Origin: Patescibacteria group bacterium
Lineage (GTDB): Bacteria > Patescibacteriota > Microgenomatia > UBA12405
Assembly (NCBI GenBank): GCA_013387215.1
Contig: WARW01000002.1
Span: 3,659-67,658 of the forward strand
DNA length: 64,000 nucleotides
Direction: 5' to 3'
Shown here: positions 3,715 through 27,953 of the stretch, piece by piece
Layout of the letters: each line of letters begins with the position of its first letter
How positions within the stretch are numbered: the first letter of the stretch is position 1
Notes under the pieces: model-generated
The model's input: only the letters and a program-made list of their open reading frames with translations
The model's database searches: none
Told to the model about the DNA's origin: nothing
Program-made: the position numbers and the translations under genes

Positions 3715-4854
3715 ATGACAGCAAAGAAAAAAATCTTGGTTCTGACAGATCATATGCCTTGGGGACATAGATCCATAGCTAAGGCAATTTACAATTATCT
3801 TAAAGCAAACGAAAAAGATAACAACTATGAAGTAGTTTATGCAGAAGTGGAAGCAAAGACGGGAATTGCAGGAGACATGTATACTTTTGCCTATCGATAT
3901 TTACCAACTTCCAATCGGCTTTTCCATAAATTTTTTAATAATAAGACAGCCAGAGAACTGTTTGAAGAAGTGTCTATTTTGAATTTGCCAAGGCTTAAAA
4001 AGGAAGTAGAACGAATAAAACCTGATTTGATAATTTCGGCTTATTTTTTTCACACTCATTCATTGGCCAAATGGAGAATTAAACATCACAAGCATTTCAA
4101 ATTGTGGAATATTGTGGCTGACCCATGGACTATTAATCCGGTTACTTTTGTCAAGGATGCCGATTTGCATTTGGTATATGACGATGTGACTATGGAAGTG
4201 GCCAAAAATTATGACATTCCAGAAAGTAAGATTATGAAAACTGGATGGTGGGTAAGACCGGAGATGTATGCTAAATATGATCGAAAAAAAGCCCGGGAAA
4301 AATTAGGATTTTGTGATGACAGGCCAGTTATTTTTATCGGCGGAGGCAGTTTGGGAACCAATTCGTTGACTCGAATACTGCCAACTTTAATGCTTTTGAA
4401 ACACAAAGTTGGATTTATTATTAATACCGGAACAGACAAACTTGCTTATAATTTAGTGGAAGAATACACTAAATTATTTAAAAAATTAAGAAAAAGCAAT
4501 GTAGTGATGATTAAAAATTTTGGCTGGATTGATAATATGGCAGAAGTGCTGGCAGCCAGTGATATGGTTTTTGGAAAGGCCGGGCCAAACTTCCTTTTTG
4601 ATGTGATGGCAACTGAAAAACCATTTGTGGCCATTACCCATATTGGCGGACAAGAAGACGGCAATATCGATTTGATCCGTAAAAAAAGATTAGGATGGAT
4701 TAGAGAAAAGAATGGTGAAATTTCCAAATTTTTACTTAAATACTTGGATAATCCAGCTGAGTATCAATGTAAATTTTTGAACAATATCAAAAAAGAGGCG
4801 GAAACAAATCAAAAAAGTTTGCCAATGATTTTGGAAGCAGTCAAGAAAATATAA
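3715..4854 (+). CDS. GT28-family diacylglycerol glycosyltransferase (MGDG-synthase/UgtP-like)
   Basis: 379 aa. The N-terminus KKKILVLTDHMPWGHRSIAKAIY aligns to UgtP KRVLILTANYGNGHVQVAKTLY. PDLIISAYFFH matches PDIIINTFPM. The C-terminal GKAGPNFLFDVMATEKPFV matches TKPGGITLTEATAIGVPVI. Confidence 0.6.
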   Translation: MTAKKKILVLTDHMPWGHRSIAKAIYNYLKANEKDNNYEVVYAEVEAKTGIAGDMYTFAYRYLPTSNRLFHKFFNNKTARELFEEVSILNLPRLKKEVERIKPDLIISAYFFHTHSLAKWRIKHHKHFKLWNIVADPWTINPVTFVKDADLHLVYDDVTMEVAKNYDIPESKIMKTGWWVRPEMYAKYDRKKAREKLGFCDDRPVIFIGGGSLGTNSLTRILPTLMLLKHKVGFIINTGTDKLAYNLVEEYTKLFKKLRKSNVVMIKNFGWIDNMAEVLAASDMVFGKAGPNFLFDVMATEKPFVAITHIGGQEDGNIDLIRKKRLGWIREKNGEISKFLLKYLDNPAEYQCKFLNNIKKEAETNQKSLPMILEAVKKI

Positions 4855-7715: not shown

Positions 7716-8276
7716 ATGAAAAAGATAGTTATCTATCCTGCAGATTGTTTAAGAGTTAAAACTAAAAAATTAGAAACCGTAAACCCGGAACTCTTGGAGG
7801 ATATAAAAATATTATCGAAAATATTGGAAAAAGGCGAAAATGCGGCGGGTTTGGCGGCGACTCAATTAAATATCAATAAAAGATTTTTTGGAATAAAAAA
7901 TAGTGCCAAAAATGAAGTAAATATTTTCATAAATCCTAAAATTGAAGAAACTTACGGCGAAAAAATATTTCCGAAAATTATAGATAAGAACGATAATGAA
8001 GAAGATTTTTTGGAAGGATGTTTGTCTTTCCCAGATTATTATGGAACCGTAAAAAGATATCTGAAAATAGATGCCAGCTGGCAAGAAATCGTTAAAGGAA
8101 AACTTATTAGCCGAAGAGAAATTTTAAACGGATTTGAGGCTATTGTGTTTCAACATGAACTTGACCATTTGGATGGAATCTTGTTTATTGATCATGTTAA
8201 AAATGATCGAGGAAAGTTTTTCAAATACATCAACAAAAAAATGGTTGATTGGGACGTAAATAAAATTAGTTTTTAG
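7716..8276 (+). CDS. def: peptide deformylase
   Basis: GCLSFPDYYG (motif 2, EGCLS) and HELDHLDG (motif 3, HExxH) are present. TAG stop. Confidence 0.9.
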   Translation: MKKIVIYPADCLRVKTKKLETVNPELLEDIKILSKILEKGENAAGLAATQLNINKRFFGIKNSAKNEVNIFINPKIEETYGEKIFPKIIDKNDNEEDFLEGCLSFPDYYGTVKRYLKIDASWQEIVKGKLISRREILNGFEAIVFQHELDHLDGILFIDHVKNDRGKFFKYINKKMVDWDVNKISF

Positions 8277-10311
8277 TTTTGATTTCTTTGTTAATCTGGT
8301 TAATATAGTCTTTAGCTTGAGTATTTTGTGGATTAATTTTTAGGGCAGCATTGAAGTTTTTTAGAGCATTTGAATAATCTTTTTGTTCAAGCTCAATCGC
8401 CCCTAAAGCAAAATAAGCATGGTCGTAATTAGACTTTAAACTGATAGCTTTCTCAAAATATGGAACAGCTTCATTTGAAAGTTTGGCGGCATCCAGAAAT
8501 TGGCCAATTAAATAATATGATTTGGCATCAGTGGGAGCCAGGACGGTGACTTTGGTTAAAGAATTTATGGATTCTTTGAAATATTTAGTGTCGATAGAGG
8601 AAAGATAGTAATACATTTGAGCGCGTTCTTTCCAAAGATTGGTGTTGGCAGGAGAAATATGAACGGCGATGTTGGAATAATTAATGGCCGAATCAATGTA
8701 GTTTCCAGATTTTAATTCATCTTTATTGGAGACAGAAATAATGGCCATTTTAGAAGCTAAAAGCGAGGCCTGGCTGAAATATACCGGTTCGTTTTGGCGA
8801 AAATTCAGTGTATTTTGAATTAATTTGTAGGCAAGCTCATAGTCTTCTTTGGCGTCTGCGGATTGAGATTGGGCATAGGAAATGTCGGCTAAATAATAGA
8901 ATAGAGTTTTTTGAAGTATTAAAATTCCAAAAATAATAATAAAGAAATAGGAGACTTGAGTTAAAAGACGATACCGGGAAATAAAACCTGTCTTTAAGGA
9001 ATTTTTTTCTTTTGGAAGTTTGGGGGTGATGGCCAAAATTGGCAAAAGAAAAAAGAAGATTGAAACCATAACGACCGTAAAACCGGCAATATTGGTAATT
9101 AAAATCGAAAGGTAAGCCGCAAAAACAGCTAAACTTTCGGCAGAATTGGTTTTATCGGTCCAAATTTCCTTAAGCAGGTTAAAAATAACAAAAAGAATGA
9201 CTAGTAGATAAGCAACGAAACCAACAGTGCCAGTGGTGGCAAGATAATTTAGATATTCATTGTGGGCTTTGTTGTAGAGAAAATCCCATTCTGAAGTGAG
9301 GTTGTGTTCAACTGGGCGGGTCCAATAATAAGTGTAGGCAAAAGTTTCAGTGCCAGTGCCAAAGAAAGGAAATTTTTTCCAAAGTTCCAAAGTGCCTTTC
9401 CAAACTATTTTTCGGATATCTTCGGAAGGGGTAATATTTAAAGTTGGACCAGAAACGGCAACTGGTTGGGCTTTGGGCGGGAATATTCGGTCTTTGATGG
9501 GATTATTAAACAAAACTGAAATAAGAGTAATGATAATAAAAAGAGGAATAATGGGTTTTAAATTTGATTTGAGAGATTTGTCTTTGAAAGATTTGAAAAG
9601 ATATAAAACAAAAAAAACAAAAAGAGAAATGATGGCGGCAATAATGCCGGATTTTGATTTAGTAAAAAGAAGACAAAGATAAAAACTGACCGATGCAGAG
9701 GCATAAAGAGCAGCGAGAATATTTTTTTTATTTTTAAAATTAACTAAGAATAAATCAAGGGAAAAAGGCAAAAGAATACACAGGTAAGCAGCTAGCCAAT
9801 TTGGTTGGCCAAGAGTCGAAAAGACACGAGACTGGACATCTTGAACCCACATGTTTTTATCGATGCCAAAATGTTCAGCAATACCAAAGCCGCTAATTAA
9901 AAATCCGGAAAATAAAAATAAATTAATTAAGTGATTTTTGAATTTATCATCAAGATAGACCACTAAAATAAAATACAAAAGAACATAGGAAATAACCGAC
10001 AAAAGACCGCCATTGAGACGGGAGTAATAACCAAAAATCGAAGTGTGAGGATCAACGGAAATAAAAGTAGAAATTGTTTGAGAAATTAAAAACAATAAAA
10101 GCGGAATGTCTAGAATTGTTCTTTTAAATAAGGAAACGCGGCCGCGAAAATAATTAATCAAATGGAGAGAAAGGAGAATAGTGGTGAGTCCATAAACAAA
10201 ATACATTTTGGGCAATTCAAAAAGTTCAGAATTGAAAGAGGTGAAGATTAGCGGGGTGAAGAAAAACAAGGCTAAAAAACAGAGACGAATGACATTAGTA
10301 ATTGATTTCAT
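8266..10311 (-). CDS. O-antigen-ligase-like (Wzy_C) polytopic membrane protein with C-terminal TPR repeats
   Basis: 681 aa. About 12 TM segments in the N-terminal 450 aa, followed by TPR-like repeats (AYFALGAIELEQKDYSNALKNFNAALKINPQN). This architecture is common in CPR and other bacteria. Confidence 0.55.
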   Translation of the reverse strand: MKSITNVIRLCFLALFFFTPLIFTSFNSELFELPKMYFVYGLTTILLSLHLINYFRGRVSLFKRTILDIPLLLFLISQTISTFISVDPHTSIFGYYSRLNGGLLSVISYVLLYFILVVYLDDKFKNHLINLFLFSGFLISGFGIAEHFGIDKNMWVQDVQSRVFSTLGQPNWLAAYLCILLPFSLDLFLVNFKNKKNILAALYASASVSFYLCLLFTKSKSGIIAAIISLFVFFVLYLFKSFKDKSLKSNLKPIIPLFIIITLISVLFNNPIKDRIFPPKAQPVAVSGPTLNITPSEDIRKIVWKGTLELWKKFPFFGTGTETFAYTYYWTRPVEHNLTSEWDFLYNKAHNEYLNYLATTGTVGFVAYLLVILFVIFNLLKEIWTDKTNSAESLAVFAAYLSILITNIAGFTVVMVSIFFFLLPILAITPKLPKEKNSLKTGFISRYRLLTQVSYFFIIIFGILILQKTLFYYLADISYAQSQSADAKEDYELAYKLIQNTLNFRQNEPVYFSQASLLASKMAIISVSNKDELKSGNYIDSAINYSNIAVHISPANTNLWKERAQMYYYLSSIDTKYFKESINSLTKVTVLAPTDAKSYYLIGQFLDAAKLSNEAVPYFEKAISLKSNYDHAYFALGAIELEQKDYSNALKNFNAALKINPQNTQAKDYINQINKEIKTKN

Positions 10312-16720: not shown

Positions 16721-18967
16721 TTATCCTTGAGTTTTTTCTGGTTCTGGCGGTGCCGGCGGAGTGGAATTTTCTGAAGGTGATGGATAAAAATTTTGTTTTC
16801 TTTTGCCCCATCTTTCTTGAGAGATGTGAACCAATTTAGATCGTTGTTGATTTTTGCAAGCCAAAGGAGGCAGAGTGGCAGCATAGAATGGTTGAGTGGT
16901 TTCGGAATCAATAGAGAGTTTGCAGACGATTTGGTATTTACCAATTTTAATTAAATCTTCAGGAGGGAATTGGGGTCCGAATTCTTTAGCTAAAATAAAG
17001 GCATCTTGGTTGCCGACAACGAAAGACATAATGGAACCAACGTTGCCCAAAATAGCGTCTTGAATAGTGCGGTCAAGCTGGGACATGTATTGGTTGGCAA
17101 CAATCAAGTTAAGTTTGAATTTGCGGGCTTCAGAAAGAATTTTAATGAAGGCATCAGTGGCAAAGTTTTGGAATTCGTCAACGTATAAATAAAAATCAGA
17201 ACGGTCTTCGGCTGCCTGGAAAACCCGGTTCATAGCCGATAACTGGATTTGTGTAATCAACATAGCACCAAGCAAAGCAGAATTATCTTCACCAAGCCTT
17301 CCAGTGGAAAGATCAGCAATAAGAATTTTTTTCTGATCCATGATTTCCTGGATATTAATTTTAGATTTAGCATGAGCCACTGTGTTTCTGATATTGGTAG
17401 AGGAAATGAATTGACCAACTTTGTTTAAGATTGGGGAAACAGATTCGTTTTGAAATTTTGGATCCATTCTGGCAAACTCATTAAACCAGAAATTTCTTAA
17501 GGTTTGATTTTGAAGCTGGCTGACAACTTTTTCCCGATAATTTTTGTTGGTTAATATTTCCACGATATGGGTTAAGTCAGAGTTGGGAGTATTAACTAAA
17601 GTTAAAACTGTATTTCGTAAAATGTGTTCAAGCCGTGGACCCCAAGAAATATTGCCGTAAAGTTTTTTGAAAATAGAAATAACACCAGAAGCAATTAATT
17701 CTTTTTGAGATTCATTTTTAGCTTCCAAAACGTTTAAAGGATAAACATAATCAGGATCGGCAGGGTTGAAATAGCAGCAGTCATTAATACGATTGGAAGG
17801 AACATAATCAAGAATAGTATTGCATAAATCGCCGTGGGGATCGATAACAGCCACACCACGGCCTTTTCTAATATCATCAATCGCCATGTTGGCGATTAAA
17901 GTGGTTTTACCAGTACCGGATTTACCGATAATGTATGTGTGGCGGCGGCGATCTTCGCCTTCTTTAATACCAAAAATACAGTCTTTGTTGCGGTATTCAG
18001 TTTTAGCAAAAAAAGTAATTTTATTTTTTTCTTCAGGTGTTAAATTATCAGCAACTGGAAGATTTTCTGGCGGATCGGCATAAAGTTTTTTACCCCAAGC
18101 AATGTTTGGGAGTTTGGTCATTTGACCTGGAAAGTGCCAAACAGCAGAGAGTTCTTCAGTATTAAAGATTTGACCTTTGAGACTGGTATCGAAATTACGA
18201 TTAAGAATAGCTTTGAGAAGTTTTTTTCTTTTTAAAAATCCTGGAGTAAAAGATTTGATAAAATTGCCTCGAGGGTTGGTGTAGGCACCAAAAGAAGAGG
18301 AAACAGAAGCAATTAAACCTGGATTGTTGCTTAAAAGATTGGCTTGAGTGTAAAGACCGGGGAATTGAATTTTTTGTTCAAAAATGGCTTTGTCGGGATG
18401 AGCAGTACGAATATTTCTTTCCTTATCAACCAAAATTCCATTTTGAATAGTGCTGATAATTGAGCTTTGCCAATTTTTGGGAGCACCGCTTAGAAGAATT
18501 TGAAATAAGAAAAAGTCATTGGAATTGTTAGATCGAGAAAGGGGAGCTAGAACAGAAACCATTGGGTCGGTATCTTTAAAATCTTTGGCAGTTTTAATTG
18601 GGTAAGTATATGAACGAGCCAGACCAAGCTGAGTGAAAGAAATAGTGTTAAGTTTCTCGTCTGAGGCATGTTCAAGTAAATAATCTTTAGTGTCTTTGAG
18701 AACGGCAGTAGGGTATTGAGCGAGAATTTGGGAATGTAAAAATTCACGATTATCAGAAAGTGCAGCAATATAGAAATGTATTTGACCATTTAAAAGAACA
18801 ATTTCCAAGGAAACAATGGTCTTTTTTTTGCCAGCTAGTTTTTCCCAGAATGACAAATTGGAAATTTGGGTGAAATTAGACAGGAGGGCGGACATGGATT
18901 CAAAAGTATATTCATTAGTCTGAGGTAAACGGATTTCAAATATAGATAATTTTGCAGCGTCGGCCAT
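16721..18967 (-). CDS. soluble AAA-like ATPase of the TraG/TraD/VirD4 - HerA/FtsK superfamily (type IV coupling-protein-like, DUF87-like)
   Basis: 748 aa. Walker A IIGKSGTGKTT followed by VIDPHGD (characteristic of TrwB/VirD4/TraG-type and DUF87 ATPases). Walker B LYVDEFQNF. No N-terminal TM helices. About 330-aa N-terminal domain of unknown function. Confidence 0.55.
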   Translation of the reverse strand: MADAAKLSIFEIRLPQTNEYTFESMSALLSNFTQISNLSFWEKLAGKKKTIVSLEIVLLNGQIHFYIAALSDNREFLHSQILAQYPTAVLKDTKDYLLEHASDEKLNTISFTQLGLARSYTYPIKTAKDFKDTDPMVSVLAPLSRSNNSNDFFLFQILLSGAPKNWQSSIISTIQNGILVDKERNIRTAHPDKAIFEQKIQFPGLYTQANLLSNNPGLIASVSSSFGAYTNPRGNFIKSFTPGFLKRKKLLKAILNRNFDTSLKGQIFNTEELSAVWHFPGQMTKLPNIAWGKKLYADPPENLPVADNLTPEEKNKITFFAKTEYRNKDCIFGIKEGEDRRRHTYIIGKSGTGKTTLIANMAIDDIRKGRGVAVIDPHGDLCNTILDYVPSNRINDCCYFNPADPDYVYPLNVLEAKNESQKELIASGVISIFKKLYGNISWGPRLEHILRNTVLTLVNTPNSDLTHIVEILTNKNYREKVVSQLQNQTLRNFWFNEFARMDPKFQNESVSPILNKVGQFISSTNIRNTVAHAKSKINIQEIMDQKKILIADLSTGRLGEDNSALLGAMLITQIQLSAMNRVFQAAEDRSDFYLYVDEFQNFATDAFIKILSEARKFKLNLIVANQYMSQLDRTIQDAILGNVGSIMSFVVGNQDAFILAKEFGPQFPPEDLIKIGKYQIVCKLSIDSETTQPFYAATLPPLACKNQQRSKLVHISQERWGKRKQNFYPSPSENSTPPAPPEPEKTQG

Positions 18968-21034: not shown

Positions 21035-21952
21035 ATGGCAGAAAAAAAGAAAGTCATAACAAAAACCGTCAACCGTAGCGGCAAATCTATGGTTAAAAAA
21101 GCATTAGTGGTAAAAGCTAAACAACAAAGCAATATCACTGCGGAAAATATTAAAAAGCTTAACGAAAAGATCAAAGCAGACAAAGACGTGGCTGCAAAAG
21201 CTTTGGAAAAAGCAAATGAGACTGTTGAAGTGAAAAAGGGTGAAGAAGTTAAACCAGATAAAAAATATAATTTAACTGTTGGTTTAAAAGATTTATTAGC
21301 AGCCGGTTGCCATTTAGGCCACAAAGTTTCTAAGACTCATCCAAAAGCCAAGGAAAATATTTATACCCAAAAAGATGGAATTGAAGTCATGGATTTAATT
21401 AAAACCATGGATGCTTTGGATAAAGCCTGCAACTTCATTTACAACAATAAAAGAAACGGCAAACAAATCGTTTTAGTTGGAACCAAAAGACAAGCCCGAG
21501 AAGTTGTCCGAAGAGTAGCAATGGATGCTGGCGTTCCATATATCACTGATAGATGGTTAGGCGGCACTATTACCAACTGGGAACAAATTAAAAAGAACAT
21601 CAAGAAACTTGTCGAACTTAAAGAAGGTATCGAAAAAGGTAAATTCATCGAATCAACCAAAAAAGAGTTATCACAAATGAATAAAGAAATCGTCAGATTG
21701 GAAAAAATCGTTGGCGGTTTGACTAGCCTTGAAAAAATGTTTGATATTTTGTTTGTTGTGGATGCTGGTTTTGAAAAAACTGCTATCAAAGAAGCAAAAA
21801 TCCGACATGTAAAAACTATTGCTATCAGCGATACTGACAGCAATCCTTTCAGAGTTAACTTTGCAATTCCTGCAAATGATGACAGTGTTAAAAGCATTAG
21901 CTTGATTGTTGAAGAAATCGGTAAAGCTATAAAAGCTGCTGGCGTGAAATAA
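21035..21952 (+). CDS. rpsB: 30S ribosomal protein S2 with an ~78-aa Lys/Ala-rich N-terminal extension
   Basis: Core from ~residue 80 (LLAAGCHLGHKVSKTHPK, VLVGTKRQAREVV, RWLGGTITNW, FVVDAGFEKTAIKEAK) aligns to S2. The N-terminal 78 aa (MAEKKKVITKTVNRSGKS...KKYN) has no S2 counterpart. Confidence 0.85.
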   Translation: MAEKKKVITKTVNRSGKSMVKKALVVKAKQQSNITAENIKKLNEKIKADKDVAAKALEKANETVEVKKGEEVKPDKKYNLTVGLKDLLAAGCHLGHKVSKTHPKAKENIYTQKDGIEVMDLIKTMDALDKACNFIYNNKRNGKQIVLVGTKRQAREVVRRVAMDAGVPYITDRWLGGTITNWEQIKKNIKKLVELKEGIEKGKFIESTKKELSQMNKEIVRLEKIVGGLTSLEKMFDILFVVDAGFEKTAIKEAKIRHVKTIAISDTDSNPFRVNFAIPANDDSVKSISLIVEEIGKAIKAAGVK

Positions 21953-21974: not shown

Positions 21975-22433
21975 ATGGATCAAAAACAAATAATTGACTT
22001 AGTCAAAAAAATTCGAGCTGAGATGGGTCTTGGCATTATGGAAATTAAATCCGCTTTGGAAGAAGCAGATGGCGATGAAAAAAGAGCCAAAGAAATTTTA
22101 AAAGAAAAAGGTTTTAAAAAAGCTGAATCAAAAGCAGAAAGAGAAACTCATCAAGGCAGAGTGGCTACTTACACTCATTCTACCGGTAAAATCGGTGTAA
22201 TGTTTGAACTTTTGTGTGAAACTGATTTCGTGGCTAAGCATGAAGATTTTATTGCTGTCACTAAGGATATTTGTCTTCAAATTGCAGCTATGAATCCAGA
22301 AACTGTTGAAGATTTAATGAAACAAGAATTTGTTAAAGATCCAAGCAAAACCATTGAGGAAATGATTAAAGCTTTGAGCCACAAGTTTGGTGAAAATGTC
22401 AAAATCGGCAAAATGGCTAGATTTGAAATCTAA
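21975..22433 (+). CDS. tsf: elongation factor Ts (short form)
   Basis: UBA-like N-terminus (LVKKIRAEMGLGIMEIKSALEEADGD), the TDFVAK motif, and the conserved position after rpsB. Confidence 0.85.
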   Translation: MDQKQIIDLVKKIRAEMGLGIMEIKSALEEADGDEKRAKEILKEKGFKKAESKAERETHQGRVATYTHSTGKIGVMFELLCETDFVAKHEDFIAVTKDICLQIAAMNPETVEDLMKQEFVKDPSKTIEEMIKALSHKFGENVKIGKMARFEI

Positions 22434-22439
22434 AAAGAA

Positions 22440-23528
22440 TTGAATCTTTTAAAAGCCCTTCGGATAAAACCGAGGGGCTTTTTAGTTGCGGTATACTTTA
22501 TTCTAATGGATTTTTCAGCGTTTCAAAAAATTTTAATTAGAAATATTTTGAAAAAATATTTAGAAAACAAAGCCCGAATTAAGGGTGAAGTTTTTCGATG
22601 TAATGCATTGGAAGGAGAGTCGGCTTATGATATTTCTATAAATTCGGACATGACAGTGTCGTGTAATGCCCAAGATTATAATGGCAGCGGCCATATTGGC
22701 GATTTGAATAAAAGCAGTTTGAAGGAAATATTTGAAGGCAAAATAGTAAATGATTTTAGAAAGAAACTAGATGAAGGAAAACTGCCATTGATTATTTGTG
22801 CCAGATGCCCGGAACTTGTATCAGCTAAAAAAAATAAGATAAAAAATAAAAAAAATACGGTGCCAAGTGAAGGCATAATGATAGAAAATACGGTTGCCTG
22901 CGATATGATGTGCAAGTCTTGCGAAAGAGAAACGCTTTTGGGCTGCAGAAAAAAAATCAGCTTGAGTTTGAATGACTTGGAAAAGATTGCTAAAGAGGTT
23001 TTAGAAAATAAAATTAAATCGGTTTGTTTTTTTAATTTAGGGGAACCTTTTTTATCAAAAAATATTTATCAAGAGCTAGAGATTCTAAAAAAACATAATA
23101 AAAAGCTTCATATTATTGTGTCGACTAATGGATTGCATTTAGATACTGATGAAAAAAGAAAGGCAATAAAATATATAAATCATATCGCTTTTTCAATTGA
23201 TGGAGTGAATAATAAAATTCTAAGAAAATACCAAACCAACGGCAATTTTGAAACATCGTATGGAAACATGAAAGCTTTGGTTGATTACCGAAATAAAAAT
23301 AATTTAGGCGGGGTAATTGAATGGAAATATGTTTTATTTAATTGGAATGATAAAAAAGTCTATATCGATCAGGCAATAAAACTAGCTAAGGAAGCAGGGG
23401 TAAATAAGATTACTTTTTGGCCAACAGGGAATCCTTTGTGGGGAATTTCCTGGCGCTATTATGTTAAGAGTTATTTTAAAAAGTTTGGGTTAAAAAACAG
23501 CAAGGGTGTAATTGAAGTGAATTTATAG
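22440..23528 (+). CDS. radical SAM domain protein with an N-terminal Cys-rich region (unknown substrate)
   Basis: CDMMCKSC = CxxxCxxC radical-SAM cluster motif. GEPFL (GGEP-like SAM-binding motif). IIVSTNG. Extra N-terminal cysteines (C..C...CxxC). Occupies the position normally held by pyrH between tsf and frr. The start may be an internal Met. Confidence 0.55.
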   Translation: MNLLKALRIKPRGFLVAVYFILMDFSAFQKILIRNILKKYLENKARIKGEVFRCNALEGESAYDISINSDMTVSCNAQDYNGSGHIGDLNKSSLKEIFEGKIVNDFRKKLDEGKLPLIICARCPELVSAKKNKIKNKKNTVPSEGIMIENTVACDMMCKSCERETLLGCRKKISLSLNDLEKIAKEVLENKIKSVCFFNLGEPFLSKNIYQELEILKKHNKKLHIIVSTNGLHLDTDEKRKAIKYINHIAFSIDGVNNKILRKYQTNGNFETSYGNMKALVDYRNKNNLGGVIEWKYVLFNWNDKKVYIDQAIKLAKEAGVNKITFWPTGNPLWGISWRYYVKSYFKKFGLKNSKGVIEVNL

Positions 23529-23581
23529 AAAACGTTTGCTAGCATCTGATATAAGCCTAATCTTTGGTATACTAGGGTCAT

Positions 23582-24133
23582 ATGTTGAATTTTCAAGAAA
23601 TAAAAAACAGAATGGAAAAAATCGTTAACATTTTTGTGAACGATATCGCTTCCTTAAGAACCGGCAGAGCAACTCCTGGTTTAATCGAAAATGTAATAGT
23701 GACAGTTTATGGCGGTCAAAAAATGAAATTGATTGAATTAGGTTCGATTACAGTACCAGATGTGAGAACTTTGAATTTCCAACCATGGGACTCTGAAGCA
23801 ATTCGAGAAATATCAAATGGAATTGCAGCCGCAAATGTGGGTATGACACCAGTGGTAGACGGACAAATAATCAGAATGAGTTTGCCAATGTTAACTGCTG
23901 AACAAAGAGAAGATTACATCAAACTTTTAGGCAGAAAATTGGAAGGGGCTAGAGTTATGGTGAGAGATGCCAGAGCAGATTATAGAAATGATATTCAAAA
24001 AGCCAAACAATCAAAAGAAATTTCTGAAGATGAATTTAAGCGGGATGAAGCTGAACTTCAAAAGGTTACCGATCAATATGTCAAAAAATTAGAGGAAGTT
24101 TCCGAGAAAAAAGAAGTAGAGATCAGAGGATAA
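23582..24133 (+). CDS. frr: ribosome recycling factor
   Basis: 183 aa. VNDIASLRTGRATPGLIENVIV matches the RRF N-terminus. Conserved operon position. Confidence 0.9.
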   Translation: MLNFQEIKNRMEKIVNIFVNDIASLRTGRATPGLIENVIVTVYGGQKMKLIELGSITVPDVRTLNFQPWDSEAIREISNGIAAANVGMTPVVDGQIIRMSLPMLTAEQREDYIKLLGRKLEGARVMVRDARADYRNDIQKAKQSKEISEDEFKRDEAELQKVTDQYVKKLEEVSEKKEVEIRG

Positions 24134-24189: not shown

Positions 24190-25245
24190 ATGGCTATTAT
24201 CATCTTTGTTCTTGCGCTGTCAGTTTTAGTTTTGGTCCACGAGTTTGGACATTTTTACGCTGCCAAAAAAACCGGCGTAAAAGTTGAAGAATTTGGTTTA
24301 GGTTTACCGCCAAGAATAATTGGTAAAAAAATTGGAGAAACAGTTTACAGTTTGAATTGGCTGCCAATTGGAGGATTCTGCAAATTATATGGTGAAGACG
24401 GGGATGGAAAAGGAACTGAAGCTTTCAATCATAAAAAACCTTGGCAAAAGCTTTTGATAGTTTTGGGAGGAGTTTTGATGAATTTAGTTTTAGCAGTAGT
24501 GATTTTTAGCGTTGTTTATGGAATTACCGGAGTACCTAAGGAAACCGACAAAGTAAAAGTTATTGGTGTGGCTCCAAATTCACCAGCGGAAAAGGTTGGT
24601 TTAAAAGAAGATGATTGGATTTCAAAAGTGGACAATATTGTGGTCAAAAAGCCAGAAGAATTAACCAATCAAGTGGCAATAGATAAAGGGAAACAAGCAA
24701 ATTTATTGGTAGTTGATAAAAACGGAAATGAAAAAAATGTGACAGTGGATGTCCGGGAAAATCCACCAAGCGGTGAAGGAAGTATGGGTGTGGCTATTTC
24801 CAATACTGATATGGTTAAACTGCCTTGGTATAGATTTTATGAAGGAATTGGGGCTGGGTTTAAAGAAGCCTATTTTTGGGGAAAAATAATTGGCGGCGGT
24901 GTGATCTCGATGATCGGAGGGTTGTTTATGGGTCACGTTCAAAAAGATGTTTCCGGTCCAATTGGAATGTTCCAAGCCACTTCAGCGATTGAAAAAAGCC
25001 AAGGTCTTTTGGCTGTGATTCATTTCTTTGGGGTTGTGTCTGTCAATTTGGCAATCGTAAACATTTTGCCTTTTCCAGCACTGGATGGAGGCAGAATTTG
25101 GTTTGTAGTTTATGAAATGTTAACCAGAAAAAGAGCCAACCAAAAAGTAGAAATAATTGCAAATAATATTGGAATGCTTTTGCTTTTAGGACTAATTTTA
25201 GTAATCACAGTTGGGGATATAATGAGATTGGCGACAGGCAAATAA
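24190..25245 (+). CDS. rseP: RIP zinc metalloprotease RseP (M50 with PDZ domain)
   Basis: HEFGHFYAAKK HExxH at the N-terminus, a PDZ domain (GVAPNSPAEKVGLKEDDWISKVDN), and a C-terminal LDGG motif (ALDGGRIWF). Confidence 0.8.
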   Translation: MAIIIFVLALSVLVLVHEFGHFYAAKKTGVKVEEFGLGLPPRIIGKKIGETVYSLNWLPIGGFCKLYGEDGDGKGTEAFNHKKPWQKLLIVLGGVLMNLVLAVVIFSVVYGITGVPKETDKVKVIGVAPNSPAEKVGLKEDDWISKVDNIVVKKPEELTNQVAIDKGKQANLLVVDKNGNEKNVTVDVRENPPSGEGSMGVAISNTDMVKLPWYRFYEGIGAGFKEAYFWGKIIGGGVISMIGGLFMGHVQKDVSGPIGMFQATSAIEKSQGLLAVIHFFGVVSVNLAIVNILPFPALDGGRIWFVVYEMLTRKRANQKVEIIANNIGMLLLLGLILVITVGDIMRLATGK

Positions 25246-25373: not shown

Positions 25374-27953
25374 TTGGTCGAATATTTGAGGAAAATGTCA
25401 AAATTTAGTTTATCTTTAGGTAAAAAGTTAGTATATAAATTGTATAAAAAGAGAGATGGATTGGTCCAAATCCCTTTAATAATTGGATTAGTGGTAATGG
25501 CTGTGGCTTTGCCGTTAGTAACAAAATTGACTCAACAGAACACTGAAAATAGAAGTAAAGCGTATGATGGATGTTCCGGTGCACCGCAACAAGCTTGTCA
25601 GTATATGAGTAACTGCACATGGAATGGAAGTAGTTGCACTTCCATAAAAACTTGTGCTTCTTGCAATGGAAATACGAGGTGTAGTGGAGATGTGGTTACT
25701 GTTTGTAATTGTGATGGTAATTGGGTTGGTAATACTCCCTGTGCCAGCGGTACTCATTGTGATAGTTCAGGTACTCATTGTGTAGCCTCAGCTCCAGCAG
25801 CAACTGCAACCCCAAGGCCTAGTGATTGCCGTACTTCAGGATGTCCATCAGGACAGACTTGTACAAGTGATGTCGGAATTTGGGACTGTGTTCCTAATCC
25901 AACTGCAACACCAAGACCTGCAAGCACTGGTGATTGTAGGACAAGCGGTTGTGCTAGGGGAACATGTACAAATATAAATTATATGGCTGGCCGAGAAGGA
26001 TCTCCGGCTGTTTATGTTTGCGTTACACCAACTCCCGTTCCTCCAACAGCAACTCCAAGACCTTATAATTGTCCTTCTAGGTGTAGTAGCAATAAAGGTT
26101 GTGCTACTGTAACTTATCAAAGTACTGATTCTGCCTGTAATAACGTTATTAGTGGAACACAAAACTACACTCCAAATTGTTCCTGCGGTCCTGTCTCTGG
26201 TGGTGATAATTCTATTTGTCAGCAAACCGGTTGTAAAAAACCAAATGGTGAGTCGTGTTCAACAGGTTCTGATTGTGCAAGTGCCATATGTTTTTCTGGT
26301 AAGTGTTCAGCTGCTGATTGTAGCGGTGGTTATGGAAACAAGCCTAATTCTTGCTCTTGTACTTATAGTTTCGAATGTGATTCAGGTAATTGTGTTAGCG
26401 GAAAATGTGTTGCTTCTGGTTCTTCAAATCCAACTTCAATACCAACTCAAGCTACCCAACACTATACGGTTTATAAAAATGGTTCTTGCCAGACTTCAGC
26501 TAATGCATATGTCAGTTTGACAGCATGTAATAATGATCCGCCAGTAAATAATTGTTACTCAAGCATGGCGGCTTGTAATAGTGCACATCCAGCAACTCCA
26601 ACCCAACACTATACGGTTTATAAAAATGGTTCATGCCAAACTTCTATAAATGAATACACAAGTTTGACAGCATGTAATAATGATCCGCCAGTAAATAATT
26701 GTTACTCAAGCATGGCGGCTTGTAATAGTGCACATCCAGTTGCTTCAGTACCAACATATACATGTGAAACAAACGGCGATCATTGTTATACCACCCAAGT
26801 TAATGGAAGCATTCCAACTTCCTGTTTAACCTACACTAATACATATAAACAATTGTATGGAAGCGGTTCTGGTACTTGTGCTAGTGGACTTTGCTGTAAG
26901 ACACCTGTTGCTTGTACATGTTCAAGCGGCTACTCAACTTCAGTAACTAGCTGTCCATCAGGATCCACTTTAGATACGACAAATTCTCTAAGTTGTGGAT
27001 CTGGAGTTAAATGCGGTAAGTGTATCACTGCAACTTCTACTACTGATCCTGAATGTGTTGGTCATGCTAACAGCACAGGATTTTGTTCAGGAACAACTTA
27101 TTTAAGATGCGAAGCAGGAAAAGTAGCTTACACTTTGGCTAATGCTGCAGCTTGTCCAGTAACTCCAACTGATGCTTGTAATAATTATGGAAGCAGTATT
27201 CCAACTTGTATGAGCCAGTCCAATTGTACTTGGAATGGAACTGCCTGTGTAACTAAGCCAGTGTGCGACAAACTATGCGGCAGCAATAAATATGGCGACA
27301 TTGTTTGTAGTGGAAATGCAGTTAAGATTTGTCAATGTGATGGAACTTGGAGCAGCACAGTTCCATGTGCCAGCGGATTAGTTTGTGACAGTACGGCAAC
27401 TAAATGTGTAGCTCCGGCAACTGCTGACCCTGGTATCACTTTTTCTAATTTTAATGTAGTGGCTAATAGTTCAACATCCGTGAGAGTGACTGGCAGTATG
27501 ACAGCAACAAATGGCGGATTATTACAAATGTATTGGTTTAAAGTAGACGGTAATGACATTCAAAAGTTAACTTTGCAAAACCCTGATGGAAATGGCGGTT
27601 TTGTGGGAAGAACTTCATATGATTTCACCAATATTTCCGTAAATAATTTAAGTACTGGAAATCATAATGTTGCAGTTTGTGGAACTGTAAAATCTACTGA
27701 TGGCAGTAAGGAAGTGAATGCTTGTACTGATGTAAAAGCTGTAAGTTTAGTAAATCCTCCAACTGCAGCACCAGGAAGATGCGATGTTTGTTCAACATTT
27801 GCTACATCAAGAAATAATGGAGATTTTGATTGTAATGGAACTTCGAACTTAACAGACTTCTCAGTATGGAAAGATCTGTATTTTAATTGTTCAGGAGTAG
27901 TTTCAACTAATGATTTTTCCATATGGAAGGAAAAATATCTTATTAATAAATAA
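25374..27953 (+). CDS. large Cys-rich modular secreted/surface protein with PT-rich linkers, internal tandem repeats, a C-terminal beta-sandwich-like domain and a dockerin-like tail
   Basis: 859 aa. N-terminal TM/signal segment (IPLIIGLVVMAVALPLV). Two ~65-aa Cys-rich modules (CxYMSNCTWNGSxCT...C.CDG.W....PCASG..CDS....CVA) near the N- and C-terminus. PTATPRP linkers. 2 x 49-aa tandem repeat. C-terminal GDFDCNGTSNLTDFSVWK ... DFSIWK resembles paired dockerin Ca-binding loops and helices. Confidence 0.55.
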   Translation: MVEYLRKMSKFSLSLGKKLVYKLYKKRDGLVQIPLIIGLVVMAVALPLVTKLTQQNTENRSKAYDGCSGAPQQACQYMSNCTWNGSSCTSIKTCASCNGNTRCSGDVVTVCNCDGNWVGNTPCASGTHCDSSGTHCVASAPAATATPRPSDCRTSGCPSGQTCTSDVGIWDCVPNPTATPRPASTGDCRTSGCARGTCTNINYMAGREGSPAVYVCVTPTPVPPTATPRPYNCPSRCSSNKGCATVTYQSTDSACNNVISGTQNYTPNCSCGPVSGGDNSICQQTGCKKPNGESCSTGSDCASAICFSGKCSAADCSGGYGNKPNSCSCTYSFECDSGNCVSGKCVASGSSNPTSIPTQATQHYTVYKNGSCQTSANAYVSLTACNNDPPVNNCYSSMAACNSAHPATPTQHYTVYKNGSCQTSINEYTSLTACNNDPPVNNCYSSMAACNSAHPVASVPTYTCETNGDHCYTTQVNGSIPTSCLTYTNTYKQLYGSGSGTCASGLCCKTPVACTCSSGYSTSVTSCPSGSTLDTTNSLSCGSGVKCGKCITATSTTDPECVGHANSTGFCSGTTYLRCEAGKVAYTLANAAACPVTPTDACNNYGSSIPTCMSQSNCTWNGTACVTKPVCDKLCGSNKYGDIVCSGNAVKICQCDGTWSSTVPCASGLVCDSTATKCVAPATADPGITFSNFNVVANSSTSVRVTGSMTATNGGLLQMYWFKVDGNDIQKLTLQNPDGNGGFVGRTSYDFTNISVNNLSTGNHNVAVCGTVKSTDGSKEVNACTDVKAVSLVNPPTAAPGRCDVCSTFATSRNNGDFDCNGTSNLTDFSVWKDLYFNCSGVVSTNDFSIWKEKYLINK
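26457..26750 (+). repeat. 2 x 147-bp tandem DNA repeat inside the CDS (encodes QHYTVYKNGSCQTS...MAACNSAHP modules)
   Basis: Copy 1 starts ~26457, copy 2 at 26604. The 3' ~77 nt of each copy is identical. Confidence 0.8.

What the first reader, a model, noticed from the sequence alone, without database searches (positions are those of the whole stretch)
22440..23528. Radical SAM enzyme occupying the pyrH slot of the rpsB-tsf-(pyrH)-frr operon
In almost all bacteria rpsB-tsf is followed by pyrH (UMP kinase) and then frr. Here the gene between tsf (ends 22433) and frr (starts 23582) is a 362-aa radical-SAM protein (CDMMCKSC CxxxCxxC, GEPFL) with an additional N-terminal Cys cluster (C..C...CxxC). 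It lies 6 nt after tsf and is co-directional, so it is probably co-transcribed with translation-factor genes. Possible roles are an RNA or ribosomal-protein modification enzyme (RlmN/MiaB/RimO-like chemistry) or an auxiliary-cluster enzyme. pyrH is absent from this locus.
Basis: partly seen in the sequence, partly recalled or inferred. Interest (0 to 1): 0.6.

Follow-up and report, generated by a model that had tools for sequence, protein, structure and literature searches.

The report
Accessory radical SAM gene, not pyrH replacement
The gene between tsf and frr is a real two-cluster radical SAM enzyme, but it is a strain-specific insertion with its own transcription signals in a variable gap of a Shapirobacteria genome, and its relatives sit next to glycosyltransferases, so it most likely tailors a cell-surface sugar and does not modify the ribosome.

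Summary
The ORF is real and is a radical SAM enzyme: CxxxCxxC at C132/C136/C139, GEPF, Pfam 59 bits. It also has an N-terminal four-Cys twitch/SPASM domain.

The context reading fails on three points:
- **Start codon.** The start is ATG 22506 (340 aa), not TTG 22440. The 72 nt after tsf hold a 13-bp terminator-like hairpin and a -10-like TATACT 8 nt before the ATG.
- **Lineage context.** The organism is a Candidatus Shapirobacteria (CPR). In 65 related loci, tsf abuts frr in 45 (gap of 200 nt or less). None carries pyrH and only one carries this gene. The closest relative (Frr 87% identical) has a 71-nt gap.
- **Nature of the slot.** The "pyrH slot" is therefore a normally empty, variable cargo site.

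The protein belongs to an uncharacterised family of about 288 50%-identity clusters, found mostly in Verrucomicrobiota. No curated NCBIfam model reaches its cut-off. The best PDB relative is BtrN, with the domain order permuted.

All six nearest relatives with readable context, and 23 of 85 family loci, sit next to glycosyltransferases (GT2, GT4, PMT_2) or UDP-sugar dehydrogenase genes.

Most likely function: BtrN/BlsE/DesII-like radical tailoring of a sugar for an envelope glycan. The exact chemistry is unknown.

The parts
21035..21952 (+). rpsB (ribosomal protein S2, 305 aa, with an N-terminal extension of about 80 aa). Part of the conserved backbone.
   Evidence: Pfam Ribosomal_S2 at 228 bits over residues 87-301; TIGR01011 at 226 bits.
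21975..22433 (+). tsf (short EF-Ts, 152 aa). Part of the conserved backbone.
   Evidence: Pfam EF_TS at 62.7 bits. Present at 62-87% identity upstream of frr in related loci.
22451..22483 (+). Terminator-like hairpin after tsf. Arms are 22451-22463 and 22470-22482 with a 6-nt loop and a T-run at 22479-22483. It lies inside the mechanical TTG-started ORF.
   Evidence: The fold of 22430-22510 gives a 13-bp stem, MFE -24 kcal/mol, z -3.4; inverted repeat I10. The same hairpin-plus-T-run design follows tsf in relatives that lack the insert.
22492..22497 (+). -10-like hexamer TATACT, 8 nt upstream of the rSAM ATG. Putative own promoter giving a leaderless or very short-leader transcript.
   Evidence: Read directly from the sequence. 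It has the same spacing as the frr -10 element, and the 8-mer GGTATACT occurs before both genes (D12). The promoter role is inferred, not shown.
22506..23528 (+). Radical SAM enzyme CDS, 340 aa, with the corrected start.
   Evidence: The database gene call P0001 is 340 aa and 100% identical. Homologue N-termini align here. The AlphaFold2 model has mean pLDDT 95.3 and pTM 0.92.
22587..22829 (+). N-terminal twitch/SPASM-like auxiliary-cluster domain (about aa 28-108). Cys32 (22599-22601), Cys53 (22662-22664), Cys98 (22797-22799), Cys101 (22806-22808).
   Evidence: Pfam SPASM match over residues 64-124 of the 362-aa ORF. The Cys are invariant or at least 90% conserved. The family profile aligns this region to the C-terminal twitch domain of BtrN, 4m7s residues 189-255 including its CKNC.
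22899..22922 (+). Radical SAM cluster motif C132-x3-C136-x2-C139 (CDMMCKSC).
   Evidence: Invariant in 120 homologues. Codons read from the sequence.
23040..23051 (+). G179-E-P-F182, the SAM-binding 'GGE-like' motif of the radical SAM core.
   Evidence: G179 and F182 are invariant; E180 and P181 are at least 90% conserved. The assignment as the SAM-binding motif rests on general radical SAM knowledge.
23565..23573 (+). TGGTATACT, an extended -10-like promoter of frr, 8 nt before the ATG.
   Evidence: Promoter scan hit with TG. 65 of 83 related loci have a -10-like hexamer whose nearest copy mostly ends 5-11 nt before the frr ATG, and 55 carry TG.
23582..24133 (+). frr (ribosome recycling factor, 183 aa). 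Part of the conserved backbone.
   Evidence: Pfam RRF at 166.5 bits; TIGR00496 at 164.7 bits.
24190..25245 (+). rseP-like M50 site-2 protease. Part of the conserved backbone, downstream of frr in relatives.
   Evidence: Pfam Peptidase_M50 plus PDZ; TIGR00054 at 206.6 bits. Synteny shown.

Best explanation
**Genomic part.** In a Candidatus Shapirobacteria (CPR/Patescibacteria) genome the conserved backbone is topA, a virD4-like gene, rpsB, tsf, frr, rseP. The tsf|frr junction is normally a short spacer: tsf terminator hairpin, then a TGnTATAAT -10 element, then 5-8 nt, then the frr ATG. This junction and the neighbouring frr|rseP junction are variable sites where different strains carry different accessory genes. 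In this strain a 1.07-kb radical SAM gene sits there, behind the tsf terminator and with its own -10-like element 8 nt before its ATG. It is therefore an independent accessory gene. It is neither a pyrH substitute nor part of the translation operon.

**Protein part.** The product has two clusters.
- The core binds a [4Fe-4S] cluster on C132/C136/C139. Together with the GEPF motif it cleaves SAM to a 5'-deoxyadenosyl radical. This is the established mechanism of the superfamily and is inferred here from motifs and fold.
- An N-terminal twitch domain (C32, C53, C98, C101) binds one auxiliary [4Fe-4S] cluster. This is inferred from conservation and from alignment to the BtrN twitch domain.
- The domain order is permuted relative to BtrN and other twitch/SPASM enzymes.

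**Function, inferred from gene neighbourhoods.** The radical abstracts a hydrogen from a sugar carbon of a nucleotide- or polyprenyl-phosphate-linked sugar. The auxiliary cluster then takes or returns the electron. The net reaction would be oxidation, epimerisation, dehydration or decarboxylation, as in BtrN, BlsE and DesII. The product is a modified sugar that adjacent GT2/GT4/GT-C glycosyltransferases place into an envelope glycan. The exact reaction and substrate are not determined.
For: **Start and signals**
- Homologue N-termini and the 340-aa database call fix the start at ATG 22506.
- The hairpin is shown.
- The -10-like elements and the junction design in relatives are shown.

**Lineage**
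- Frr homologues at 77-80% identity are named Candidatus Shapirobacteria.

**Insertion**
- 65 related loci have both tsf and frr. The gaps are 200 nt or less in 45, 200-700 nt in 15, and over 700 nt in 5. None has pyrH, and the rSAM is present only in L007.
- The closest relatives lack it: L172 (Frr 87% identical, 71-nt gap) and L175 (82%, a different 175-aa gene on the other strand).
- Other cargo at these sites includes Cys-rich secreted proteins, a GT-C-like membrane protein with an AsnB-like amidotransferase (both named from sequence features, not scanned), and in L172 DAHP_synth_1, Peptidase_U32 and ABC transporter genes.

**Protein**
- Pfam finds Radical_SAM plus an N-terminal SPASM match.
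- The Cys are invariant or nearly invariant.
- The AlphaFold2 model has pLDDT 95.3.
- The family profile hits BtrN in swapped order: family 59-124 aligns to BtrN 189-255, and family 129-221 to BtrN 8-100 (E 8e-9).
- The top Foldseek PDB hit is BlsE, followed by viperin, TYW1, MoaA and DesII. This is core-level similarity only, TM about 0.45.

**Glycan link**
- The six nearest relatives with readable context all have glycan neighbours. P0002 and P0003 have GT4 neighbours and P0004 has a PMT_2/TMEM260-like neighbour (weak Pfam matches close to or below the curated cut-offs). P0008 overlaps a GT2 gene by 17 nt. P0023 lies in a cluster with a UDP-sugar dehydrogenase, methyltransferases, B12-rSAMs, GT4, GT2 and Glycos_transf_4 genes. 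P0073 lies in a cluster with GT2, a methyltransferase, Wzm/Wzt, a pyruvyl transferase and GT9 genes.
- In 23 of 85 family loci a PMT_2, GT2 or Ugd-like gene lies close downstream, nearly always on the same strand and directly adjacent in most.
- In a neighbour-joining tree the window protein groups with P0002, P0003, P0004 and P0008.
Against: - In the window itself no glycosyltransferase is adjacent. The nearest are more than 12 kb away (GT4 1203-3419, GT28-like 3715-4854, Wzy_C 8266-10311).
- About 70% of family loci show no glycan gene next to the rSAM (for example P0010 beside a GGDEF regulator and P0007 beside an M20 peptidase).
- Similarity to BtrN, BlsE and DesII is at superfamily level only (17% identity, TM 0.46), so it does not fix the chemistry.
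- Most characterised SPASM/twitch enzymes act on peptides.
- The terminator and promoter are consensus-level predictions. No terminator is evident between the rSAM gene and frr, so its transcript may read into frr.
- The 8-mer repeat is no longer than chance repeats in the region.
Confidence: 0.55

Rival explanations
1. RNA or ribosomal-protein modification enzyme (RlmN/Cfr, MiaB/RimO-like), co-expressed with translation factors.
For: Its position between tsf and frr, on the same strand. One further Shapirobacteria-like contig (L007) also has the gene directly after tsf. No clear terminator separates it from frr.
Against: - A terminator-like hairpin separates it from tsf.
- It is absent from the site in 64 of 65 related loci, including the closest relatives. 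A translation-machinery modifier would be expected to be conserved.
- Cfr/RlmN-type models score about 16 bits against cut-offs of 530-550. No MiaB/RimO model appears among the best 25 of 26 NCBIfam matches, and Pfam finds no TRAM, UPF0004 or PUA domain.
- In other phyla the family is never beside translation genes.
Confidence: 0.04
2. Peptide or protein maturase, as for most SPASM/twitch enzymes. Examples are thioether or C-C cross-linking of a RiPP, or maturation of a secreted Cys-rich protein or a metalloenzyme.
For: - The best NCBIfam similarities are to 'maturase' families: TIGR04317 W-cofactor oxidoreductase maturase at 70.7 bits, rSAM_Geo_metal, and the WgkB model, which matches 104 of 120 members weakly.
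- Cys-rich secreted proteins are common cargo at the same genomic sites, and one (859 aa) lies 1.8 kb downstream.
Against: - All these matches are far below their cut-offs (70.7 against 380) and cover only the core.
- The protein has no RRE/PqqD-like peptide-binding domain; it consists only of an N-terminal helix, the twitch domain and the core.
- No conserved neighbour cluster occurs in more than 18 of 87 loci (ORFs of 80 aa or more), and the recurrent ones that were annotated are GT2, MqnC-like, PMT_2, purM, LysM, DUF4139/4140 and N-terminal-methylation proteins. ORFs under 80 aa were not screened.
- It has one auxiliary cluster, not the two found in most peptide-modifying SPASM enzymes.
Confidence: 0.12
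3. Lipid-modifying radical SAM enzyme acting on a polyprenyl or membrane lipid. An example would be modification of the polyprenyl-phosphate carrier used by the neighbouring GT2/GT-C enzymes, or of a quinone or lipid tail.
For: - Recurrent neighbours GT2 (about 250 aa, Dpm1/ArnC-like size) and PMT_2 GT-C enzymes use polyprenyl-phosphate sugars (established knowledge of these families).
- An MqnC-like menaquinone gene lies upstream in 14 of 85 loci.
- Weak profile hits to HpnH and to GDGT/MA synthase 7tol.
Against: - The MqnC adjacency comes from loci whose record titles are mostly Verrucomicrobiota and may be plain synteny.
- The HpnH and 7tol matches are core-level only (24 and 19 bits).
- The model was not examined for a hydrophobic tunnel or membrane segment.
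Confidence: 0.1
4. Viperin-like antiviral enzyme carried in a variable defence island, making a chain-terminating nucleotide.
For: It sits in a strain-variable cargo site. There are weak pVip matches (PADLOC 36 bits; NF038283 32 bits) and viperin structures among the Foldseek hits.
Against: - The matches cover only the N-terminal half of the core and are far below cut-off (32 against 180).
- To my knowledge, viperins have no auxiliary cluster or twitch domain.
- Family neighbours are glycan genes, and no defence gene was recognised among them.
Confidence: 0.04

Closest known systems
BtrN (2-deoxy-scyllo-inosamine dehydrogenase of butirosin biosynthesis; PDB 4M7S/4M7T), the prototype twitch-domain radical SAM enzyme
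   Same: It is the best solved-structure relative by profile search (E 8e-9). Both the core and the auxiliary-cluster domain align, including the C-terminal CxxC pair of the twitch domain. Both have one radical SAM cluster plus one fully Cys-ligated auxiliary cluster, and both are small single-chain enzymes. BtrN acts on a sugar-like aminocyclitol, which fits the glycan context of this family.
   Different: The domain order is swapped: the twitch domain is N-terminal here and C-terminal in BtrN. Sequence similarity is low (17-18 bits per domain). This family has an extra conserved C-terminal region (EWKYxLFNWND, FWPT, GISxRY motifs) that did not align to BtrN in the profile search. No aminoglycoside genes are nearby.
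NCBIfam NF033640 'N_Twi_rSAM' (twitch domain-containing radical SAM protein; uncharacterised subfamily)
   Same: Same collinear architecture of an N-terminal twitch domain followed by the radical SAM core. The match spans residues 43-265 of the protein and model positions 14-272 of 398. 92 of 120 family members match it weakly.
   Different: The score is 34 bits against a cut-off of 170, with a best family E-value of 1.3e-11. It is a distant sister family, not a member. NF033640 has no assigned function either.
BlsE (cytosylglucuronate decarboxylase, PDB 7VOB) and DesII (PDB 8HZV/8HZY), radical SAM enzymes that tailor nucleoside or nucleotide sugars
   Same: BlsE is the top Foldseek PDB hit and DesII is also in the top ten. 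Both are sugar-modifying radical SAM enzymes, and BlsE is also found by the profile search. UDP-sugar dehydrogenase genes are neighbours in several family loci. That would supply a uronic-acid substrate of the kind BlsE decarboxylates.
   Different: Only core-level structural similarity (TMq 0.42-0.46, 14-17% identity). The N-terminal twitch placement is not shared. No functional residues were compared.
Canonical rpsB-tsf-pyrH-frr gene cluster of many bacteria (e.g. E. coli)
   Same: rpsB, tsf and frr are present in the canonical order and orientation.
   Different: pyrH is missing from the cluster across the whole sampled lineage, in 0 of 65 loci. The tsf|frr spacer is normally gene-free, so nothing has been 'replaced'.

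Membership tests
Radical SAM superfamily (PF04055) | CxxxCxxC motif for the SAM-binding [4Fe-4S] cluster | tested here: met
   C132-x3-C136-x2-C139 is invariant in 120 homologues.
Radical SAM superfamily (PF04055) | Profile match above the curated threshold, and a partial TIM-barrel core fold | tested here: met
   Pfam 59.3 bits against a cut-off of 29.5. The AlphaFold2 model (pLDDT 95.3) matches radical SAM cores in the PDB at probability 1.00.
Radical SAM superfamily (PF04055) | Reductive cleavage of SAM to the 5'-deoxyadenosyl radical | not testable with these tools
   Needs anaerobic biochemistry.
SPASM/twitch subgroup of radical SAM enzymes | Auxiliary Fe-S domain matching the SPASM profile, with conserved Cys ligands | tested here: met
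   PF13186 at 24.1 bits against a cut-off of 21.5. Four conserved Cys (C32, C53, C98, C101) are enough for one cluster, which makes it twitch-like and not a seven-Cys SPASM domain. The region aligns to the BtrN twitch domain.
SPASM/twitch subgroup of radical SAM enzymes | Auxiliary domain located C-terminal to the radical SAM core | tested here: not met
   The domain is N-terminal (residues about 28-108, with the core starting at about 124).
NF033640 N_Twi_rSAM | Score at or above the curated cut-off (170 bits) | tested here: not met
   34.4 bits. The best E-value among 120 family members is 1.3e-11.
NF033640 N_Twi_rSAM | N-terminal twitch domain followed by the radical SAM core | tested here: met
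   Collinear match over both domains.
RlmN/Cfr rRNA/tRNA methyltransferases | Family profile match above the cut-off | tested here: not met
   Cfr models score 16.1-16.5 bits against cut-offs of 530-550. No RlmN model is listed.
MiaB/RimO methylthiotransferases | N-terminal UPF0004 cluster domain and C-terminal TRAM domain | tested here: not met
   Pfam reports neither domain at E up to 0.01. No MiaB/RimO model appears among the best 25 of 26 NCBIfam matches.
Prokaryotic viperins (pVip) | Family profile above the cut-off | tested here: not met
   NF038283 scores 31.8 bits against 180. PADLOC pVip scores 36 bits over the core half only.
MoaA (GTP 3',8-cyclase) | Family profile above the cut-off, with a C-terminal auxiliary cluster | tested here: not met
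   TIGR02666 scores 38.5 bits against 284. The auxiliary cluster is N-terminal.
rpsB-tsf-pyrH-frr translation gene cluster (as a co-transcribed member) | Conserved presence of the gene at this position in related genomes | tested here: not met
   Present in 1 of 65 related loci and absent from the two closest relatives.
rpsB-tsf-pyrH-frr translation gene cluster (as a co-transcribed member) | No transcription stop between tsf and the gene | tested here: inconclusive
   A terminator-like hairpin with a T-run lies between them. This is a prediction only. The consensus scan did not list it, possibly because the A/T flanks extend the stem into the T-run.
Glycan-tailoring radical SAM enzymes (functional class, e.g. 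BtrN, DesII, BlsE) | Genomic association with glycosyltransferase or sugar-nucleotide genes | tested here: met
   Six of the six nearest relatives with context, and 23 of 85 family loci. Not met in the window itself.
Glycan-tailoring radical SAM enzymes (functional class, e.g. BtrN, DesII, BlsE) | Demonstrated activity on a sugar substrate | not testable with these tools
   Needs enzymology.

The most novel reading that the evidence does not exclude
The family is a circularly permuted twitch-type radical SAM enzyme (auxiliary-cluster domain moved to the N-terminus). It would catalyse a sugar-tailoring reaction not yet described, for example radical oxidation, epimerisation or decarboxylation of a UDP- or polyprenyl-phosphate-linked sugar. 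The product would feed a GT2 plus GT-C (ArnC/ArnT-like) surface-glycosylation route in Verrucomicrobiota and, through mobile single-gene cassettes, in CPR bacteria.
Probability: 0.25. Interest if true: 0.5.

Novelty: new member of a known kind. Interest (0 to 1): 0.3.

Why it matters
The headline idea, a radical SAM enzyme recruited into the translation-factor operon in place of pyrH, would have been striking, but the evidence does not support it. Three modest points remain.
- **An uncharacterised family.** It is well delimited and highly conserved (45-55% identity across phyla). It has an N-terminal twitch domain, no curated model and no known reaction. Its repeated link to GT2, GT4 and GT-C genes gives enzymologists a concrete substrate class to test.
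- **A variable cargo site.** In Shapirobacteria the tsf|frr and frr|rseP junctions hold different accessory genes in different strains. Many of these encode surface or glycan proteins, which bears on how reduced CPR genomes vary their envelopes.
- **A caution for sequence-only reading.** Mechanical ORF starts can hide terminators and promoters, and 'missing' operon members must be checked against the lineage, not against E. coli.

Tried and rejected
**Searches that were unavailable or gave nothing**
- The exact-protein contig look-up for the window protein found no record.
- The cluster look-up gave no organism names. The lineage was inferred from named Frr homologues instead.
- The genome-contig scan did not return the window's own genome (best hit 50% identity). 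pyrH elsewhere in this genome could therefore not be tested.
- A single-sequence PDB search with the N-terminal 123 aa found nothing. Only the family profile reaches BtrN.
- Literature searches for an N-terminal twitch domain, for radical SAM enzymes in polysaccharide clusters, and for pyrH in Shapirobacteria/CPR found nothing specific.

**Ideas rejected**
- *RNA-modifying enzyme, MoaA, viperin, anSME-like or other curated families:* all scores are far below cut-off.
- *Rfam:* only tRNAs in the window and no regulatory RNA near the gene.
- *GGTATACT 8-mer flanking the insert as a target-site duplication:* not claimed, because equally long chance repeats are common in the region.
- *Recent foreign origin from base composition:* gene GC is 0.312 against a window gene mean of 0.359 (sd 0.026). 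That is low but not an outlier.
- *Domain fusions in family members (DUF4214, SLH, TPR):* noted but too weak to use.
Full report
**1. What is in the sequence**

The ORF list shows rpsB (21035-21952), tsf (21975-22433), a 362-codon ORF starting at TTG 22440 and ending at 23528, frr (23582-24133) and an rseP-like M50 protease (24190-25245), all on the + strand. Pfam and NCBIfam confirm the four flanking genes.

The middle ORF matches Pfam Radical_SAM (59.3 bits, cut-off 29.5, residues 151-286) and Fer4_12. N-terminal to the core, it also matches SPASM (24.1 bits, cut-off 21.5, residues 64-124).

**2. The start codon and the '6 nt' spacing are wrong**

The identical database protein (P0001) is 340 aa. 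In an alignment of 19 diverse homologues, the N-termini align around Met23 of the ORF. The start is therefore ATG 22506.

The 72 nt between the tsf stop and this ATG contain a 13-bp inverted repeat (22451-22463 / 22470-22482, 6-nt loop) running into a T-run. The region folds at -24 kcal/mol with z = -3.4 against shuffles.

The consensus terminator scan did not list this hairpin. A possible reason is that the A/T flanks extend the stem into the T-run.

Directly after the hairpin lies GGTATACT, whose TATACT ends 8 nt before the ATG. The same 8-mer, preceded by T to give TGGTATACT (an extended -10), ends 8 nt before the frr ATG.

**3. The lineage and what normally sits between tsf and frr**

Frr homologues at 77-80% identity that carry a source name are all 'Candidatus Shapirobacteria bacterium', apart from one named 'Patescibacteria group'. 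The window is therefore most likely a Shapirobacteria (CPR) genome. Its GC content is about 35%.

A metagenome scan with Frr returned 80 loci at 69-81% identity. Together with three further contigs (L172, L175, L007), 65 loci contain a complete tsf 3' end and frr. The tsf-frr gaps are:

| Gap size | Number of loci |
|---|---|
| 200 nt or less | 45 |
| 200-700 nt | 15 |
| over 700 nt | 5 |

The radical SAM gene is found only in L007 (Frr 74% and Tsf 65% identical to the window). There the order is tsf, rSAM, a PMT_2/TMEM260-like gene on the other strand (a weak match, below Pfam's cut-off), a hypothetical gene, then frr.

The two closest relatives lack the gene:
- **L172** (Frr 87% identical) has the same topA, virD4-like, rpsB, tsf, frr backbone with a 71-nt tsf-frr gap. 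It carries different cargo between frr and rseP: DAHP_synth_1, Peptidase_U32, ABC2_membrane and ABC_tran genes.
- **L175** (Frr 82% identical) has an unrelated 175-aa gene on the opposite strand.

Other occupants of the tsf|frr or frr|rseP junctions are:
- small Cys-rich secreted proteins with an N-terminal 'QENRSKA' motif;
- a GT-C-like membrane protein together with an AsnB-like amidotransferase (L154, L167);
- a DUF559-like protein (L138).

The last two descriptions rest on sequence features I recognised, not on a family scan.

In relatives without an insert, the junction has a fixed design: tsf stop, GC-rich hairpin plus T-run, TGnTATAAT, 5-8 nt, then the frr ATG. Of 83 loci, 65 have a -10-like hexamer within 40 nt upstream of frr, the nearest copy mostly ending 5-11 nt before the ATG, and 55 carry the TG extension. 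The median fold energy of 37 short gaps is -24.4 kcal/mol.

The conclusion is that there is no 'pyrH slot' in this lineage. The window gene is a strain-level accessory insertion placed after the tsf terminator, and it carries a -10-like element with the same geometry as the frr promoter. The transcription signals are predictions, not measurements.

**4. What the protein is**

The family is tightly conserved, at 45-55% identity across phyla.

- Invariant in 120 sequences: C53, C101, C132, C136, C139, G179, F182, and W273/Y275/F278/W280/N281/D282.
- At least 90% conserved: C32, C55 (Ala in the window protein) and C98.

This gives the radical SAM triad C132/C136/C139 and four N-terminal Cys (C32, C53, C98, C101), enough for one auxiliary [4Fe-4S] cluster.

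No NCBIfam model reaches its cut-off for the window protein or for any of the 120 members. The best is TIGR04317 at 70.7 bits against 380. NF033640 'N_Twi_rSAM', which has the same N-terminal-twitch architecture, scores 34 bits against 170.

An exhaustive profile search of 1.84 billion cluster representatives finds 288 at E of 1e-30 or lower, so the family is modest in size and well delimited. In GTDB species genomes the best 80 loci are mostly Verrucomicrobiota. There are scattered members with record titles such as Smithella, Syntrophaceae, Riflebacteria, Rokubacteria, Methylomirabilota, Acidoferrum, Clostridia and Bifidobacteriaceae.

A family-profile search of PDB sequences puts BtrN first (E 8e-9), with the two segments in swapped order. 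The family's N-terminal domain (59-124) aligns to BtrN's C-terminal twitch domain (189-255, including its CKNC pair). The family's core (129-221) aligns to BtrN 8-100. Relative to BtrN the family is therefore permuted.

The AlphaFold2 model is confident (pLDDT 95.3, pTM 0.92). Foldseek against the PDB gives only core-level matches with TMq of about 0.4-0.46. These are BlsE (cytosylglucuronate decarboxylase), viperins, TYW1, MoaA, DesII, NifB and anSME. No close structural homologue has been solved.

**5. What it probably does**

Across 85-87 family loci, no neighbour is universal. The largest neighbour cluster occurs in 18 loci. The recurrent neighbours are still informative:
- a PMT_2 (GT-C) gene directly downstream on the same strand in 9 loci;
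- a GT2 gene of about 250 aa downstream in 13-18 loci;
- a gene I labelled Ugd-like, by BLAST to a representative picked on its length, directly downstream in 4 loci (the Pfam census of the immediate downstream neighbours found the UDP-glucose/GDP-mannose dehydrogenase domains in 3);
- an MqnC-like gene upstream in 14 loci, whose record titles are mostly Verrucomicrobiota.

In total, 23 of 85 loci have PMT_2, GT2 or Ugd-like genes within 6 kb, nearly all downstream on the same strand and adjacent in most.

The window protein's own clade is more telling. In a neighbour-joining tree it groups with P0002, P0003, P0004 and P0008.

| Relative | Neighbouring genes |
|---|---|
| P0002, P0003 | GT4 (weak matches near the Pfam cut-off) |
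| P0004 | PMT_2/TMEM260-like (weak, below cut-off) |
| P0008 | GT2, overlapping the rSAM gene by 17 nt |
| P0023 | UDP-sugar dehydrogenase, methyltransferases, three B12-radical SAM genes, GT4, GT2, Glycos_transf_4 |
| P0073 | GT2, methyltransferase, then after the rSAM Wzm, Wzt (with Wzt_C), acetyltransferase, pyruvyl transferase, GT9 |

The inference is that the enzyme tailors a sugar used in an envelope glycan. By analogy with BtrN, BlsE and DesII, the 5'-deoxyadenosyl radical would abstract a hydrogen from a sugar carbon, and the auxiliary cluster would handle the electron. The analogy does not distinguish between oxidation, epimerisation, dehydration and decarboxylation.

There are caveats. 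Most family loci show no glycan neighbour (for example). In the window the nearest glycosyltransferase genes are more than 12 kb away.

**6. Rivals**

- **RNA or ribosomal-protein modification.** Rejected on lack of conservation at the site, lack of family or domain matches, and the glycan contexts elsewhere.
- **Peptide maturase.** Possible, because most SPASM/twitch enzymes are maturases. There is no RRE domain, no conserved neighbour that looks like a precursor (ORFs under 80 aa were not screened), and only one auxiliary cluster.
- **Lipid modification.** Possible, given that the neighbouring enzymes use polyprenyl-phosphate donors.
- **Viperin-like defence.** Only weak core-level matches support it.

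**7. Verdict**

The object is real but the hook is not. This is a new member of a known kind: a twitch-type radical SAM enzyme from an uncharacterised family with an N-terminal auxiliary domain, sitting as accessory cargo in a variable intergenic site of a CPR genome. Interest is modest (0.3).

Noticed in passing
window 22434-22505 and 23529-23581; loci L092, L094, L113, L119, L125, L136, L172: Shapirobacteria-type tsf|frr junctions have a fixed compact design: GC hairpin plus T-run, then TGnTATAAT, then the frr ATG only 5-8 nt later. This implies a leaderless or near-leaderless frr mRNA. 65 of 83 loci have the -10-like hexamer and 55 carry TG.
   Followed up: partly
window 25374-27953 (motif near 25545); L088, L090, L098, L100, L109, L120, L122, L129, L132: Many strain-variable genes inserted at tsf|frr or frr|rseP encode secreted, often Cys-rich proteins. 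They share an N-terminal hydrophobic (probably membrane-spanning) stretch followed by a conserved 'Q(E/N)NRS(K/S)A(A/E)' motif. The 859-aa Cys-rich protein just after rseP in the window has it (TENRSKA). This could be a lineage-specific sorting or processing signal.
   Followed up: partly
window 21975-22433: EF-Ts is only 152 aa. The Pfam EF_TS match covers model positions 1-76 of 204, and TIGR00116 scores 97.6, just under its 104 cut-off. The tblastn matches in related loci span the full 152 residues, so a shortened EF-Ts looks typical of the lineage.
   Followed up: no
window 21035-21952: Ribosomal protein S2 carries an N-terminal extension of about 80 aa, rich in Lys. The Pfam match starts at residue 87.
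   Followed up: no
window 45306-46046 (-): A class-I release-factor-like protein of only 246 aa. The PCRF match covers only model positions 101-194, so the N-terminal part is missing.
   Followed up: no
window 46412-48139 (-): A 575-aa protein that combines a uridine kinase/PRK-family domain with a CYTH domain. It may be relevant to pyrimidine salvage in a genome region that lacks pyrH.
   Followed up: no
window 16721-18967 (-); L172 274-2535; L175 538-2742: A VirD4/TrwB-like coupling ATPase (about 750 aa) sits between topA and rpsB in the window and in both closest relatives. It looks like a conserved core gene of the lineage, not mobile-element cargo.
   Followed up: partly
window 22490-22497 and 23566-23573: An exact 8-nt direct repeat, GGTATACT, lies 8 nt upstream of both the rSAM and the frr start codons, 1076 nt apart. 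It could be a duplicated promoter or insertion junction, but repeats of this length are common by chance in the region.
   Followed up: partly
proteins P0250, P0388, P0255, P0050 (family members elsewhere): Some family members are fused to DUF4214 (three cases), an SLH domain (one case) or TPR repeats (one case).
   Followed up: partly
L154 327-3708 and L167 2589-6004: In two relatives the tsf|frr gap holds a multi-pass membrane protein of about 430-465 aa (GT-C-like, opposite strand). Next to it is a protein of about 630 aa with an N-terminal MCGIFG glutamine-amidotransferase motif and an SGGRDS PP-loop motif. This looks like a sugar amidotransferase, i.e. another glycan-type cargo at the same site.
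   Followed up: no
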